From an uncultured bacterium (GTDB taxonomy: Bacteria; Babelota; Babeliae; Babelales; Babelaceae): a stretch of DNA of 64,000 nucleotides. This document shows, in pieces, positions 44,101-50,100 of this stretch (positions within the stretch are counted from its first letter, which is position 1; the number at the start of each line of letters is the position of its first letter). The position numbers are program-made. Location of the stretch: assembly GCA_963717435.1 (NCBI GenBank), contig OY970332.1, positions 448,001-512,000 on the forward strand. The letters are read 5' to 3'.

Positions 44101-47100
44101 TCGAAATTTTCTAATTTTATAACAGACTGGGTATAATCCTGAATTATTGCGCTGTAAACTTGCGTATAACTAGTAACAATATGCCGTATAAAATCTTCTG
44201 TTTGCATAGGCGAGTTAACAAGCGGAGAAAGCATCTTAAAATAATCGTACCCTGACCCGAGAACCACTTCTTGAGAAGCAACCATATATTTGGCCGCACC
44301 CTTTCCATCATTTGCCTGTTTTATTGAAGTTGCGACTCCCACCATTGACATAAGACAAGCATCAAAAATTATGGTTTCAAACTGTTCTCCCATTAGGCAT
44401 TCTTTGCATACTGTGTCCAAAACTTGCCCCAGGCTCTTGTTGGTTATATATGTTGATGATGAGTCATCAAAGCAGCTTCCTCGTTCTTCTGTTTGTTCAT
44501 TAACGGCTCTTACAAAATCCAGAAATCCTATACTGCGATCAAGTTCTATTTTGCGAGTTTGCGGATTAAAATTAAATAATTCTGATGCGTTTACCGCCCT
44601 TCTTAATTGAGGTTCAACGTCACCTGTGCCGTGGTTCCAAATCAAAAGATGATATCTTTTAGCCTTAAACTGCGTAGTTGCCATCCTGCAGAAATCTAAT
44701 AGTGTATTCGGGTCGCCGCTACTCATATTCAAATCTGGCCCAATTTTTACAAGTGTATTATTTTGCACATAAAATCTTTGAGTTATTTTCTTTTGGGCCA
44801 ATCTTTTAATATCAAGATGTATTACGATTTTTAAATTTTTTGAATTCGTTGCTACTTTCATTATTTGACTCAGATTTCTATCTGCAAATACTGCAAGATC
44901 GTTAACGGCAGCGATATAAATTGCGAGCAAATGTTCTGAGACTTCGTCGTTTTTGTTAATTTTTTGTTTTCTAGTCGCATCACTAGGCTGTATTTCTATT
45001 TCTTGCATATCTGCGTTTATATTTGATACACAAGCAAGAGCAAAAATATTTAAAATAAGTTTTTTCATCTTGGTCCCCTAAATTTTCTAAAGAATTAGAA
45101 TCTCATAAGATCTAATAGAATCTTATGATAATATGTTCCCAATTATCAATAATTTAAAAATAATTTGAGAATCTAAATAATTAAACTTTTAATATATTAT
45201 AGAGGGCCAAAGCAAAAGTGATTCCAAAGCTTAGCTGGAAATCGAGAAAAAATAGCTGGCTGGGGTTATGCAAAAGGACCATAAAGCAAGTAAGAGATAC
45301 TATATTTATGGCCTGGACTGGCAAATACAAAAAATTGCATAAATTATAAATAAAAAACATAATAAGCGATCTTAAAAAGCCGATAGTTGACCAGCTTAAT
45401 ACTGCATATATTGTTATCAGAATTATAGATAATATTTTTTTGGCAGAATAACTTATCGGCATAAATGCAGTTAATATCTGCAATATTAGTATCACCATTA
45501 ATAAATGCAGACCCGCGCGGGCAATATAGTGCGACAGTCCCCAATAACTAAAATCTTTTTTAACCTGCGTAAATATGTCTTCAGAAATATTTTTATATCC
45601 AAAAAATACCAGTGAAAAATAGGCGAAGCTTTTTGGGGAAAGCTTATTCTCTATTTTCTTTATTAACTTATTTTTAAAAACTGTGATTTTGTCGTACCAG
45701 CTTAAATTTTTCTGTTTTTCGGGAAAATTTGTTTCGGTGATTTCAGTTAATTTAGTTATTTTGGATTCTAAATTCAGAATAAACAAATTGGACAAAATCT
45801 CTTCTTTTATCAGATATCTTTTGAACTCTTTATTGTCAGACTTCTTAAGCTCTATATCTTTTAATTTTATTTTGTCCCCGATTTTTAAATTAGGGTCAGT
45901 TTTTGTATAAATATAAATTATTTTGTTTTTGTAAGCGTCAAAATTTTTGGTATCAGTTTTAATATAACCCGCTTGCGCGATATTTTCTGACAGATCCTGA
46001 ATTTCCAAACTTAACTTATAGGGCATGTTTTTTTGTTTAAACTTAGTAACATCAAGCACTTTTGCATATAACTCCAGCTTCTTATACGCAAGAATATTTA
46101 TCTTGTTATCGTAATCTGACACAACATGCTGATTTCTTACCGATCCGGCAAAAAAGCATATTAAACTTATCCCAATTAAATTATAAAACTCAGATTTTTT
46201 TTCTAAAATATATCTTAACCAAACAAGAATTATTCCCGACACAAACAAGCCAATTAAAATTAAATTTGTACTTGAAAATCCATAATCGTTAAAATAAATT
46301 CCAAGAATCAAAAAAAACGTATAAATAACTACGTTTGGGATTTTAGAATCGAAAAAATTTTGTGCAGATTTTGTTTCTTGCGGCACTTATGTGTTTTCTC
46401 GGTAACTTATTTTTAGACTTCTTTAATTTCTGAGAATCCTGGGCTTGATAAATCAAATTTAAGATCTGCAGCCATTTTTTCAACTGATTTGGCGTGCTCT
46501 TCAAGACCCAAAGATACAATAAGATCGATAAATTCCATAGGCATCATCCCAATTTCAGTTGCCTGATGAAAAATACATGTCGCAGGCGTCATGCCCGGAA
46601 GAGTATTTATCTCGATTATAACCAATCTTTGCTTGCCAGTCTTGCTAAGTGTTTCGTTTTGATAAAAACAGTCGATTCTTGAATAACCCTTACAACCAAC
46701 GGTCATATAAACTTGTTCTATTATGTTCTGAACAAATTTTATTCTTTCAGGCTCAAGATTTGCAGGTGTTTGGTTTTCACCGGCACCGGGCAAGAATTTT
46801 TCTTCTATCGATAATATATCTCCTGCTGTGATCGTCTGACTCGGTGGCATAGCTGTAGCGCTATTATTTCCCGTAACGCCAACAGTTAACTCCATACCGA
46901 CAATACATTCTTCAACAAGTGCAAAATTTTTATTGCTTGAGAATATATTATTTATGCAAGTCTCTAAATCTTTTTTGTTTTTTGCTTTTTGCACCATCAC
47001 GCTGCAACCGTCATCATGCGGCTTTATTATCATCGGAAAGCCAATATTTTTTTCTATTAAATTTAAAGTTTGTTCTCTATTAAGCTCAAAATCAGTTTTT

Positions 47101-50100
47101 TCGACTAAAATTCCAGCTGGTACATCAAAGCCCTTAGATCGCAAAAAATTATTTGTTTTAAATTTATCCATGCATAGTGCACTTGCAAGAACGCTAGAGC
47201 CATTATACGGTAAATCTAGCATCTCCAGAGCGCCCTGAACAGAACCATTTTCGCCCTCGCCGCCGTGCAGCGCAATAAAAACAAAGTCCGAAAGTTTCTT
47301 AAGATCCGACCAGCCAATTTTCATTTCTGGTTTTAATCCCAAAGTAATCTCGCTTGTTGAATTTCTTACAAGCAATTTCTGGTCGATTATATAAAGATCC
47401 AAATTTGCATCGACAAATACAGGCATAGCAACATATTTTTCTGGAGATAGCTTATAAATTATATTTCTACCAGATTCTAGCGAGATCTCTTTTTCGTTCG
47501 ATCTTCCGCCAAGTAGTACTGCAACACGAAGTTTATTTTCCATATTATTATTTTTTTCAAACTCTAATTCAAAATCTAAATTTTTGTTTTTTAGCACAAG
47601 CTCTGATTTAATTAAGTGGTTAATAACTGCTGTATGTGACATATCAATTTCAGCAGCCTGTCTAAATAATATACTCGATGGTGCCATTCCCGAAAGTGTA
47701 TTTGGGTCCGTTATAATAACTCGATTATCTTTTGTCAAAAAACCATCTATGCGGGCTAAAGTTGTCATCCCAAGAGATTTCATAGTTTTTATACAAGTTT
47801 TTTGTATCAAATCTATTTCTTTTTCTGAGCATCGTGCTGGCGTAAATTTTTTGGATTTACCGGGCATATATTTTTGCTCGTAATCCCAAAAGCCATTAGC
47901 GCTTTCCGGAACTATCTCTGTTGGTGGTAATATTATAGGCTCGCCCGTTTTATAATCAATTAAGATTAGGCAAGAAAACTCCATTCCCTCGATTTTTTCT
48001 TCAACCAAAACATCTTGTGTTTTTTGTGGGTCTATATTTTTTGCTTTAATTATGGCTTTAAATAATTCTTCTTTATTATTAACAATGCTAACGCCCAGAC
48101 TTGAGCCTTCATGTTGGGGTTTTACAACAAGTGGGAAATCTAGCCCCGCTGATTTTATCTTTTCCAGAATCTTTTCTTTATCTACAGAATTAGTATTTTT
48201 AATATCTGATGCTTTAATTACAATATCTTTTGCTGTATTTATGCCATCTTGCTTTAAAATACTTTTTTGAAAAATCTTATCCATTCCAAATGCGCTTGCA
48301 GCTACTTTTGAGCCTAAATACGGGATGCGCAAAACTTCAAGCATGCCCTGAAGTGTGCCATCTTCAGCAAATCTGCCATGGGTTGCAATATAAACAAAAT
48401 CTATAAGATTTTTTAAATCATCCCAGCTTATTTTTTCTGCTTCTTTTTCTAATCGATCTTCAAAATCTGATATTTTTCCACGATATAAAAACTTGTTGGG
48501 CAAAATATATAGATCGCCATTTGATCTTTGAAATATTGGCACAATACTATAAATTTGTGTGTCCAAATGGTTGCAGACAGTTCTGCCCGAATTAAAAGAG
48601 ACTTCTCTTTCAATCGATCTTCCCCCCATCAAGACGCCGACTTTGATTTTTGTCATTTTTACCCCAAAAAATTTATGTCCCCAGAAAAGAATATAATTTA
48701 TTTTTTGTTTATTTTTTATTCTATATTTTATTATCATAATTTTAGATAAAATTACTATTTAAATCTAGAAAATATAAAATTTTAATCAGAAAGTTTATTT
48801 ATGTCAGATCTAGTAAAAACAGCAAAAAACGACAAAAAATCAAATTTGGTATGGGTGGATCTGGAAATGACGGGCTTAAATCCCCTAAAAGACAAAATTT
48901 TAGAAATCGCAGTAATAATAACTGACGGAGAGCTTAATATTATCGCAGAAGGCCCGCAGATTATAATTTCTCAGAAATTTGATCAAGCTCTTCTAGATCC
49001 AAAAGTTATTAAAATTCATACAGATAATGGCCTATTTAAAGCAGTAGAAGAATCTAAAATTTCACTTGAAAGTGCCGAACAAACTGTTTTAGATTTTGTT
49101 AAGCAATATTGCGACGCCGGCACCGCGCCGCTTTGTGGAAACTCAATTTATAACGACCGTTTTTTTATTAAACTTTATATGCAAGAATTAGATAAATTTT
49201 TGCACTATAGAAACTTAGATGTCTCTAGTATCAAAGAAGTTGTTAAGCACTGGTACCCAAATAACCCCAAAATAAAATTTTTTAAACCCGAGTCCCACAG
49301 AGCATTAGAAGACATAAAACTTTCTATCGAAGAACTAAAGCACTATAGAATGAACTTTTTTATCTCCCAGTAAAAAGCGACATAAACTTTAATCACTATT
49401 TTCTGAAATTTTAAAAGCCCCAAATTTTCATCTGGGGCTTTTTTTACTTAGCGAGTCTGTTTGCTTTCTTTATCAAGTTAGAACACAGGTCCCTGCTTTG
49501 CACCAGTCCCGTTTGAGTAATACTTATTTTTCAGAGCAAGAGTTAATGGGCTTTGGGTCAAGCTTGTATTGGCGTTATACCTAGCTAGTGCAAAGTCATA
49601 ATTAAAGAAAGGGAAACTGCCACTTTCAACGTATCCAGCGGCGACAATTTGTCCATTAGATTGTATTGATATTGAATTTATTTGGCTGCTTGTAAACCCA
49701 CTAATTGCTGTTGTCACAATGCCGTCTGTTCCAAAACTTGTGTCCAAGCTGCCATTGGTATTGTATCTTGTTAGGGCCAATTCTCCGCTAGATCCGCCAG
49801 CAGCAATGATTTGTCCATCAGATTGCATAGCTATTGAAAATATTCCGCTACTTGTACTGCCATTAATTGACGTAATGACAATGCCATTGGTGTCAAAACT
49901 GCTATCTAATGTGCCATTGCTATTGTATCTTGCCAATACAAATTCAGAAGCCCCGTTTATTATTGTACTTCCACCAGCAACAATTTGCCCATTGGATTGT
50001 ATGAGTACTGAATTTATTTGGTTATTTGTGCTGCCACTAATTGAAGTGGTTACAACACCATTTGTTCCAAAACTCGTGTCCAAAGCTCCATTGGGGTTAT

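What a model noticed while it worked through the whole genome (the two positions that open the first line are those of the whole stretch)
46413..48737. Tandem-fused double D-Ala ligase with an invariant Tyr module and Phe module
The only Ddl gene encodes two complete D-Ala-D-Ala ligase modules in one 774-aa chain. Both keep the catalytic motifs. The N module always has Tyr, and the C module always has Phe, at the active-site position that separates dipeptide from depsipeptide (D-Ala-D-lactate) ligases. The fusion is conserved across the phylum. This suggests a fixed pseudo-dimer with two differently specified sites.
Evidence so far: - **Domains:** Dala_Dala_lig_N and Dala_Dala_lig_C each match twice. 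The modules are 34% identical. - **Conservation:** full-length homologs occur in 58 of 60 other genomes at 53-61% identity. - **Motifs in 24 sequences:** K-Y-M-P-G with Tyr 24 of 24 in the N module, and K-F-L-P-G with Phe 24 of 24 in the C module. R-x-D and (D/E)-x-N are kept in both. - **Residue equivalence:** the Phe aligns to the Tyr of K-Y in solved DdlA 7u56_A. - **Phe/Tyr rule:** from the abstract and passages of PMC5996685. - **Prior description:** none found.
(Added by a program. Inside this text positions count along the whole contig: contig position 448,001 is position 1 of the stretch shown here. "Call 12" and the like, gene names such as g00115 and contig names such as C1 are that model's own, and its searches are not shown. 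The text may have been shortened before it was handed on; [...] marks where a part breaks off. The agent that wrote the report below was given it as the finding of a first reader that could run no searches.)

Follow-up and report, generated by a model that had tools for sequence, protein, structure and literature searches.

The report
Two-in-one D-alanine ligase, unequal sites
This gene fuses two copies of the cell-wall enzyme D-alanine-D-alanine ligase into one chain whose two active sites differ in a fixed way; the same design occurs in many other bacteria and has been reported in plants.

Summary
[quoted passage not shown] The real start is probably M28 at 48656.

The N module keeps the canonical E-S-Y triad of E. 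coli DdlB. The C module has Cys for Ser150 and Phe for Tyr216. Across the family, four active-site positions are fixed differently in the two modules: 150 S/C, 216 Y/F, 270 D/E and 281 S/T.

The fusion is not special to Dependentiae. The same asymmetric fused protein occurs in Bacteroidota (including cultured Hymenobacter), in Pseudomonadota, Rickettsiales and Chloroflexota MAGs, and sometimes fused further to MurF and alanine racemase. Plant DDL is already described as a fusion of two DDL enzymes.

All N modules form one clade and all C modules another, which fits a single ancient origin. Modelling supports a fixed pseudo-dimer (pTM 0.90; N-C interface 0.82 against 0.36 for the best control).

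D-Ala-D-lactate synthesis by the Phe module is not supported by context. The genome has no D-2-hydroxyacid dehydrogenase, and moss precursors end in D-Ala-D-Ala. I read it as an ordinary housekeeping Ddl of a widespread tandem family whose conserved asymmetry I did not find described.

The parts
46413..48737 (-). Longest ORF (774 aa with stop) encoding the tandem Ddl-Ddl protein
48654..48656 (-). Probable true start codon (M28), which gives a 747-aa protein
   Evidence: Homologues start at query residue about 28. GGGGT lies 5 nt upstream. AF2 pLDDT is below 50 for residues 1-23.
47553..48656 (-). N module (residues 28-395): a canonical Ddl with E43, H120, K154, K206, S212, K289, Y290, R329, D331, D344, N346, S355
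47868..47870 (-). Codon of Tyr290, equivalent to E. coli DdlB Tyr216
48102..48104 (-). Codon of Ser212, equivalent to DdlB Ser150
47538..47597 (-). Inter-module linker (about residues 381-400), where model confidence is lower
   Evidence: pLDDT blocks of 78 and 67
46446..47540 (-). C module (residues 400-764): a Ddl with E415, H491, K525, K572, C578, K647, F648, R687, D689, E709, N711, T720
46794..46796 (-). Codon of Phe648, at the position of DdlB Tyr216
47004..47006 (-). Codon of Cys578, at the position of DdlB Ser150

Best explanation
The gene encodes the cell's only D-Ala-D-Ala ligase, built as a single-chain pseudo-heterodimer.

- **Architecture.** Two Ddl modules descend from one ancient duplication. 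They pack against each other through equivalent surfaces, like the two subunits of an ordinary Ddl dimer.
- **Both sites look active.** Each module keeps all ATP, Mg and catalytic residues, so both sites are inferred to work.
- **N site.** It is a canonical D-Ala-D-Ala site with the Glu-Ser-Tyr triad intact.
- **C site.** The triad is dismantled (Ser to Cys, Tyr to Phe) and there is a Ser to Thr change near the second-substrate pocket. I infer that this alters or relaxes its handling of the second substrate.
- **Physiological output.** I infer that the enzyme makes D-Ala-D-Ala from the D-Ala supplied by alanine racemase and hands it to MurF for peptidoglycan synthesis.

Shown here: the architecture, the conserved asymmetry, its spread across phyla, and the model-level pairing of the modules. 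Inferred: activity of both sites, the product, and the kinetic or specificity meaning of the asymmetry.
For: **Architecture and gene content**
- Two full Ddl modules sit in one frame, and this is the only Ddl in the genome.
- Alanine racemase and MurF are present in the genome.

**Conservation**
- Catalytic residues are kept in both modules. They are invariant or nearly so in 144 aligned fused proteins.
- Over P0001 plus the 136 two-module cluster representatives (137 fused proteins), the only positions fixed differently in N and C (at least 85% conserved in each) are DdlB 150 S/C, 216 Y/F, 270 D/E and 281 S/T.

**Single origin**
- All 115 C modules, with two stand-alone C-type proteins beside them, form one clade (support 0.995).
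- All 133 N modules plus 5 stand-alone N-type proteins form another (0.975).
- The two clades are sisters (0.953), to the exclusion of E. coli DdlB, DdlA and VanA.

**Pairing of the modules**
- AF2 gives mean pLDDT 92.2 and pTM 0.90 for the whole chain.
- The complex test of N against C scores 0.82, against 0.36 for the best of 3 controls. That mark was reached by 116 of 157 solved complexes and 2 of 215 mismatched pairs. Runs agree in at least 82% of contacts and partner pLDDT is at least 85.
- The interface uses equivalent stretches, 126-137 and 145-164 against 497-507 and 516-535.
- This pass may reflect the model's memory of solved Ddl homodimers.
- Natural split forms keep N and C as adjacent genes (G137, G099, G105, G107; pairs on the same contigs).

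**Housekeeping D-Ala-D-Ala role**
- In Hymenobacter and Sporocytophaga, the matches that together span the Ddl profile lie in the fused 923-953-aa frame; the others are partial.
- Relatives are fused further to MurF (P0211) and to MurF plus alanine racemase (P0235).
- Moss, whose DDL is a double fusion, makes the usual pentapeptide precursor (passages).
- A Y216F DdlB was crystallised with ADP and a phosphoryl phosphinate (PDB 1iow, title). It is therefore not a dead enzyme.
Against: - No enzyme assay exists for any bacterial member that I could find.
- The C module alone scores below the curated cut-off of the generic Ddl subfamily model (232.2 against 243).
- The two positions changed in the C module are the ones that PMC7691350 (passages) links to depsipeptide activity. 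It states that DdlB gained weak D-Ala-D-Lac activity after Tyr216 to Phe and Ser150 to Ala, the residues of LmDdl2. A different product at the C site therefore cannot be excluded.
- Coordinates of the model could not be compared with a solved Ddl dimer. That the interface equals the canonical one rests on the symmetry of the contact lists and on my recall.
- The tree has few single-module outgroups.
Confidence: 0.65

Rival explanations
1. The Phe/Cys C module is a depsipeptide ligase (D-Ala-D-lactate), as in Leuconostoc and Lactobacillus. On this reading the cell makes two kinds of peptidoglycan precursor termini from one protein.
For: - Phe sits at the Tyr216 position, and Ser150 is also replaced.
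- The Phe/Tyr rule is stated in the abstract of PMC5996685.
- PMC7691350 (passages) reports that DdlB gains weak D-Ala-D-Lac activity with Y216F and S150A, the residues of LmDdl2.
- The genome holds a weak VanX/VanY-like M15 peptidase (34.9 bits against a cut-off of 27).
Against: - The own genome has no 2-Hacid_dh_C (LdhD/VanH family) protein above cut-off; the best match is 23.5 bits against 25.1.
- Only 25 of 151 genomes of the phylum have a full-profile match, while 147 of 151 carry the ligase.
- The D_ala_D_lac model scores the C module at 139 bits against a cut-off of 550, no better than the N module at 152.
- The same Phe/Cys module sits in what looks like the sole Ddl of free-living Hymenobacter.
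- It also occurs in proteins fused to alanine racemase and MurF.
- Moss precursors are of the D-Ala-D-Ala type (passage).
- The rule was established in lactic acid bacteria, and position 150 here is Cys, not Ala.
Confidence: 0.12
2. The C module is a non-catalytic structural or regulatory partner, a pseudo-enzyme that only stabilises the N module.
For: - The Glu-Ser-Tyr triad is broken in the C module.
- The C module alone falls just under the generic Ddl cut-off.
Against: - The residues equivalent to DdlB H63, K97, E187, K215, R255, D257, E270 and N272 are invariant in the C module of 144 fused proteins, and K144 as well. They are 94-99% conserved among 136 cluster representatives, gaps counted as misses.
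- That pattern fits selection on catalysis.
- The Y216F DdlB was crystallised with ADP and a phosphoryl phosphinate (1iow title).
Confidence: 0.08
3. The two modules are two independent enzymes merely tethered in one chain, with no fixed pseudo-dimer. Each would pair with a module of another chain.
For: - Solved Ddls are single-module chains.
- The linker is modelled with less confidence.
- In Cardinium the two modules lie in distant frames.
Against: - pTM of 0.90 for the whole chain.
- N-C interface score of 0.82 against 0.36 for the best control, with symmetric contacts.
- Order and adjacency are kept in split forms.
- N and C modules nearly always occur together in the fused family.
Confidence: 0.1

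Closest known systems
E. coli DdlB and other single-module D-Ala-D-Ala ligases (EC 6.3.2.4)
   Same: - Same two Pfam domains and ATP-grasp fold.
- Each module superposes on DdlB structures (TMt 0.91-0.93 for 4c5a, 2dln and 1iow).
- The N module keeps every DdlB active-site residue examined except Glu270, which is Asp.
   Different: - Two modules in one chain instead of a homodimer of one.
- The C module has Cys, Phe and Thr at DdlB positions 150, 216 and 281.
- No solved chain covers both modules. Sequence-matched chains are 306-386 aa; Foldseek targets are at most 360 aa, with TMq 0.35-0.39.
Plant DDL (Arabidopsis, Physcomitrium), the plastid peptidoglycan pathway enzyme
   Same: - Described as a fusion gene of two putative DDL enzymes (PMC9954125 passage).
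- Streptophyta clusters of 918 aa and 721 aa look like the bacterial fused Ddl over both modules (TM 0.70 over 737 residues). This is a lead only.
   Different: - Eukaryotic and nuclear-encoded.
- P. patens Ddl was reported closest to the FCB (Bacteroidota) group (PMC9434261 passage), not to Dependentiae.
- I could not obtain a plant sequence, so the Tyr/Phe asymmetry is untested there.
Fused Ddl of Bacteroidota (Hymenobacter, Sporocytophaga, Saprospiraceae and others) and of Pseudomonadota, Rickettsiales and Chloroflexota MAGs
   Same: - Same N-then-C order and the same signature, ESYDS / ECFET at DdlB 15/150/216/270/281. It is exact in 63 of 80 named loci; the other 17 are partial and show no exception at position 216.
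- Modules from these clades fall within the same N and C clades of the tree.
   Different: - 30-43% identical to this protein.
- The Bacteroidota forms are 840-950 aa with insertions.
- Some carry PASTA, MurF or alanine racemase extensions.
LmDdl2 and Lactobacillus Ddl (Phe-type D-Ala-D-lactate ligases), and VanA
   Same: - Phe at the Tyr216 position, as stated for lactic acid bacteria.
- The Ser150 position is also changed in LmDdl2 (passage).
   Different: - Those are single-module enzymes.
- Position 150 here is Cys, not Ala.
- No D-lactate dehydrogenase partner is present.
- The Van and D_ala_D_lac models score far below their cut-offs.
- VanA falls outside the N+C clade.
Chlamydial MurC-Ddl bifunctional protein (NCBIfam NF011171)
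   Same: Another natural fusion that involves a Ddl module in an intracellular bacterium.
   Different: Its partner is MurC, not a second Ddl. The model scores 246.9 bits against a cut-off of 1015 here.

Membership tests
[quoted passage not shown] | Dala_Dala_lig_N plus Dala_Dala_lig_C (ATP-grasp) domains | tested here: met
   Both domains match twice, at 167.7 and 257.6 bits against cut-offs of 34.6 and 24.
[quoted passage not shown] | Curated NCBIfam subfamily score | tested here: met
   - Whole protein: PRK01372 468.7 against 243; TIGR01205 458.4 against 245.65.
- N module alone: 243.4 against 243.
- C module alone: 232.2 against 243, just under the cut-off.
[quoted passage not shown] | ATP, Mg and catalytic residues (DdlB K97, K144, K215, R255, D257, E270, N272). 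The roles of these residues are from my recall. | tested here: met
   Present in both modules. The N module has Asp at position 270.
[quoted passage not shown] | Glu15-Ser150-Tyr216 triad of the dipeptide-only enzymes | tested here: inconclusive
   - N module: met (E43, S212, Y290).
- C module: not met (E415, C578, F648).
- The link of Ser150 and Tyr216 to D-Ala-D-Ala-only enzymes comes from PMC7691350 passages.
[quoted passage not shown] | ATP-dependent formation of D-Ala-D-Ala | not testable with these tools
   Needs an enzyme assay.
D-Ala-D-lactate (depsipeptide) ligases, LmDdl2 or VanA type | Non-Tyr residue (Phe or His) at the DdlB 216 position | tested here: met
   - C module: Phe648, and Phe in 120 of 120 close homologues and 131 of 136 representatives.
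- N module: Tyr.
D-Ala-D-lactate (depsipeptide) ligases, LmDdl2 or VanA type | Curated D_ala_D_lac or Van model score | tested here: not met
   NF000206 scores 139.1 (C module) and 152.4 (N module) against a cut-off of 550. No Van model is near its cut-off.
D-Ala-D-lactate (depsipeptide) ligases, LmDdl2 or VanA type | A source of D-lactate (a D-2-hydroxyacid dehydrogenase such as VanH or LdhD) in the genome | tested here: not met
   PF02826 reaches at best 23.5 bits, below the 25.1 cut-off, in the own genome. A full-profile match occurs in 25 of 151 genomes of the phylum. D-lactate from the host is not excluded.
D-Ala-D-lactate (depsipeptide) ligases, LmDdl2 or VanA type | Depsipeptide synthesis in vitro, or D-Lac-ending precursors | not testable with these tools
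   Needs an assay or LC-MS.
Tandem Ddl-Ddl fusion family (bacterial fused Ddl; plant DDL) | Two complete Ddl modules in one chain, the N-type (S/Y/D/S) before the C-type (C/F/E/T) | tested here: met
   Each module falls in its family-wide clade.
Tandem Ddl-Ddl fusion family (bacterial fused Ddl; plant DDL) | Sequence kinship with plant DDL itself | not tested
   No plant sequence could be obtained. The only support is a literature passage and cluster-level look-alikes.

The most novel reading that the evidence does not exclude
The tandem Ddl may be an obligate asymmetric enzyme shared by Dependentiae, many Bacteroidota, other bacteria and perhaps plant plastids. In this reading the conserved Cys/Phe/Thr site makes a product other than D-Ala-D-Ala, such as D-Ala-D-lactate or another D-Ala-D-X, or acts as a second, differently tuned catalytic site. 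That would be an unrecognised layer of peptidoglycan-precursor chemistry in Gram-negative lineages.
Probability: 0.15. Interest if true: 0.75.

Novelty: new member of a known kind. Interest (0 to 1): 0.5.

Why it matters
Ddl is an essential enzyme, an antibiotic target (D-cycloserine) and the switch point of vancomycin resistance.

The analysis shows that a large, cross-phylum family of Ddls is built as a fused, or occasionally split, pair of unlike modules. The differences between the modules are fixed at exactly four active-site positions. My literature searches did not find this described.

It gives a concrete, testable idea for why plant DDL is double, and for what the remaining C-terminal half does in Arabidopsis ddl insertion lines (PMC9954125).

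It also points to culturable carriers such as Hymenobacter, where the two sites can be separated by mutation. For this genome alone the finding is ordinary: it is the organism's housekeeping Ddl.

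Tried and rejected
**Literature**
- Searches for a described bacterial double Ddl found nothing relevant. These were no relevant paper; 27 papers, none on this judging by titles and abstract starts; Dependentiae papers.
- Passages of PMC4378268 and PMC6561590 mention murein genes but not Ddl.
- Hirano et al. 2016 (PMC4981129) is not held. The supplement of PMC9954125 holds no readable text. 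What these say about plant DDL residues is therefore unknown to me.

**Plant sequences**
- None of the 150 best cluster representatives looked plant-like.
  - Only four had N-terminal extensions.
  - Two of these (P0195, P0199) fall inside bacterial clades and one (P0238) on a long branch of the third, bacterial clade.
  - The fourth (P0206) also falls in a bacterial clade; by eye its extension looks like an acetyltransferase, but Pfam found no extra domain there.
- The plant link therefore rests on the literature and on Atlas cluster labels.

**Artefact**
- A mis-joined pair of genes is rejected. The single open frame recurs in 127 of 151 genomes.

**Origin of the modules**
- I considered a fusion of a DdlB-type with a DdlA-type paralogue, as the PDB hit pattern suggested.
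- I rejected it because E. coli DdlA and DdlB both fall outside the joint N+C clade.

**Other**
- The weak M15 peptidase was considered as a VanX partner. The match is partial and equally VanY-like, so it decides nothing.

Full report
**What is there**

Window 46413..48737 on the minus strand is one ORF of 774 codons. Pfam finds Dala_Dala_lig_N twice and Dala_Dala_lig_C twice. NCBIfam's generic Ddl subfamily models pass their cut-offs, and no Van model comes near its own. The two modules, residues 28-395 and 400-764, are 34% identical (122 of 354).

The genome is a single contig of 1,198,203 bases, estimated 88.8% complete. PF07478 matches it at two places only, both in this frame, so this is the only Ddl gene. 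The first 27 codons are probably not translated:
- homologues start at residue about 28;
- GGGGT lies 5 nt upstream of the ATG at 48656;
- residues 1-23 are modelled with pLDDT below 50.

**Active sites**

I took E. coli DdlB from NC_000913 and aligned it with both modules (codons verified). The residue roles below are from my recall of the DdlB literature unless a paper is cited.

| DdlB position | N module | C module |
|---|---|---|
| E15 | E43 | E415 |
| H63 | H120 | H491 |
| K97 | K154 | K525 |
| K144 | K206 | K572 |
| S150 | S212 | C578 |
| K215 | K289 | K647 |
| Y216 | Y290 | F648 |
| R255 | R329 | R687 |
| D257 | D331 | D689 |
| E270 | D344 | E709 |
| N272 | N346 | N711 |
| S281 | S355 | T720 |

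The C module therefore changes Ser150 as well as Tyr216, two of the three members of the Glu-Ser-Tyr triad. PMC7691350 (passages) states that Ser150 and Tyr216 are conserved in Ddls that make only D-Ala-D-Ala. It also states that DdlB gained weak D-Ala-D-Lac activity after Tyr216 to Phe and Ser150 to Ala, the residues of LmDdl2.

**Conservation**

- *Close homologues.* In 120 fused sequences of 724-809 aa, including this protein (the named ones are Dependentiae or Babeliales), the N module has Ser/Tyr and the C module Cys/Phe in 120 of 120.
- *Phylum sample.* Of 151 genomes of the phylum (G000 included), 147 match, and in 127 one place covers both modules.
  - Four genomes have no match. Babela massiliensis is reported to lack murein genes (PMC4378268 passage), which may explain such cases.
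  - G137, G099, G105 and G107 carry N and C as adjacent separate frames in the same order.
  - A search among shorter proteins found many 350-420-aa N-type or C-type proteins at 50-67% identity, several in pairs on one contig.

**Not a trait of this phylum alone**

An exhaustive search of 1.84 billion cluster representatives listed 150 best hits, of which 136 have two modules. Besides the Dependentiae group there are two further groups:
- A group of about 840-950 aa, with names such as Cytophagales and Bacteroidetes MED-G17.
- A group of about 720-850 aa, with names such as a Rickettsiales MAG and Anaerolineaceae.

Among these 136 representatives the counts are as follows.

| Position | N module | C module |
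|---|---|---|
| 216 | Tyr 132, Phe 1, gap 3 | Phe 131, Arg 1, gap 4 |
| 150 | Ser 130, gap 6 | Cys 128, Ser 4, Gly 2, gap 2 |

A scan of GTDB species genomes returned 80 named loci. They were mostly Bacteroidota, including the cultured Hymenobacter guriensis and H. saemangeumensis, and MAGs labelled Sporocytophaga, Chitinophaga, Saprospiraceae and Amoebophilaceae, plus Cardinium cBtQ1.
- 63 of the 80 show exactly E-S-Y-D-S and E-C-F-E-T at DdlB 15/150/216/270/281.
- The other 17 are partial or gapped, with no exception at position 216.

In the Hymenobacter and Sporocytophaga genomes the matches that together span the Ddl profile lie in the fused 923-953-aa frame; the other matches are partial. 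In Cardinium the two modules lie in distant frames.

**Plants**

PMC9954125 (passage) says that At-DDL, like its Physcomitrella homologue, encodes a fusion of two putative DDL enzymes. PMC9434261 (passages) reports that P. patens Ddl is closest to homologues of the FCB group, and that the moss pentapeptide matches that of typical Gram-negative bacteria. The protein atlas lists Streptophyta clusters of 918 and 721 aa that resemble a Bacteroidota fused Ddl, with TM 0.70 over 737 aligned residues. That is a lead only. I could not obtain a plant sequence, so the S/Y against C/F asymmetry in plants is untested.

**Evolution**

I built a FastTree (LG+gamma) tree of 261 module sequences over 344 columns. 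Modules covering less than profile positions 12-335 were left out. The tree holds 133 N modules, 115 C modules, 10 stand-alone proteins, E. coli DdlA and DdlB, and VanA.
- All C modules, with two stand-alone C-type proteins beside them, form one clade (0.995).
- All N modules with five stand-alone N-type proteins form another (0.975).
- The two clades are joined (0.953), to the exclusion of DdlB, DdlA and VanA.
- The N clade splits into the Dependentiae, Bacteroidota and third groups.

This fits one ancient duplication and fusion, followed by occasional fission. The outgroup sample is small, so single-module lineages that might branch inside are not excluded.

Across P0001 plus the 136 two-module representatives (137 fused proteins), the only columns conserved at 85% or more in both modules with different residues are DdlB 150, 216, 270 and 281. 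All four are active-site positions, by my recall of the DdlB structure. Differential selection is thus concentrated on the catalytic pocket.

**Structure**

AlphaFold2 with a 144-row alignment gave mean pLDDT 92.2 and pTM 0.90. That is high for a two-module chain, so the relative placement of the modules is confident.

The complex test of N (28-390) against C (400-762) scored 0.82 against 0.36 for the best of three controls.
- That mark was reached by 116 of 157 solved complexes and 2 of 215 mismatched pairs.
- Runs agree in at least 82% of contacts, and partner pLDDT is at least 85.
- Contacts are between equivalent stretches, 126-137 and 145-164 with 497-507 and 516-535.
- The model supports binding but does not show it. 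Because Ddl homodimers are solved, the pass may come from memory.

Every Foldseek PDB match covers one module only (TMq 0.35-0.39; targets of at most 360 aa). All 37 sequence-matched PDB chains are 306-386 aa. I found no solved tandem Ddl.

**What the Phe/Cys site does**

Evidence against a dedicated D-Ala-D-lactate role:
- The own genome has no 2-Hacid_dh_C protein above cut-off (best 23.5 bits against 25.1).
- In the phylum, only 25 of 151 genomes have a full-profile match.
- The D_ala_D_lac model scores the C module no better than the N module (139 and 152 bits against a cut-off of 550).
- The same module is part of the apparent sole Ddl of free-living Bacteroidota.
- Relatives extend the double Ddl with MurF (P0211: TIGR01143 319.7 against 288.6). 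P0235 adds MurF plus alanine racemase (352.8 against 288.6, and TIGR00492 295.7 against 168). Together these form the D-Ala branch of murein synthesis.

Evidence for some altered specificity:
- The two positions changed, 150 and 216, are the ones that PMC7691350 links to depsipeptide activity (passages).
- They are fixed across phyla.
- A weak VanX/VanY-like M15 peptidase exists about 10 kb upstream of the window.

Alanine racemase and MurF are present in the genome.

**Verdict**

The gene is the housekeeping Ddl of this Dependentiae genome. It belongs to a widespread tandem Ddl family whose architecture is already described for plants and is annotated, without comment, in many bacterial genomes. 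The family-wide, fixed asymmetry of the two active sites is the part that I did not find described. The depsipeptide reading is possible but unlikely as the main role.

Noticed in passing
outside the window: G000:C1 about 437340-438210 (L035:1839-2711, minus strand): A 290-aa protein has a weak, partial match to Peptidase_M15 (VanX family, 34.9 bits against a cut-off of 27) and to VanY (24.9 bits against 25). It is a possible D,D-peptidase in a genome whose only Ddl has a Phe-type site.
   Followed up: partly
relatives: P0211 (1262 aa), P0235 (1638 aa), P0148, P0133, P0244: Some members of the fused family carry further domains. P0211 is Ddl-Ddl-MurF and P0235 is Ddl-Ddl-MurF-alanine racemase. 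In the Bacteroidota clade some have a C-terminal PASTA domain.
   Followed up: partly
G154 (Cardinium endosymbiont cBtQ1): C1:90472-91215 and C1:431729-432565; L085: In this insect endosymbiont the two Ddl module types lie in separate frames (455 and 470 aa) about 340 kb apart. The L085 frame has the C-type signature.
   Followed up: partly
G143:C11:27119-29293 and G143:C6:8552-10729: One Dependentiae genome holds two full-length copies of the fused gene, 55% and 53% identical to the query.
   Followed up: no
G067, G078, G112, G146 (family f8) and G111: These Dependentiae genomes gave only weak matches to the fused Ddl (E-values 4e-34 to 1e-61, in 3-4 pieces; G111 at 2e-15). They may hold a divergent or decayed gene.
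   Followed up: no
window 49478-50917 (-), and L035:151-1107 (+): A 479-aa protein is made of repeats of an N-T-N-G-T-L-D-T-S-F-G-like motif. A similar repeat protein outside the window matches DUF5122 beta-propeller repeats (187.8 bits).
   Followed up: partly
window 43659-45068 (-), 45181-46386 (-), 48801-49373 (+): The neighbours of the Ddl gene are a clostripain-family C11 peptidase, a ComEC-like Competence-domain membrane protein and an RNase_T-family exonuclease. None is a murein gene, so the Ddl is not in a dcw-type cluster here.
   Followed up: yes
P0228 (358 aa) and P0245 (354 aa), metagenomic: Two stand-alone single-module proteins branch as sisters of the whole C clade (P0228, Ser150/Phe216) and of the whole N clade (P0245). 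They could be descendants of the unfused pair, or early splits. Their organisms are unknown.
   Followed up: partly
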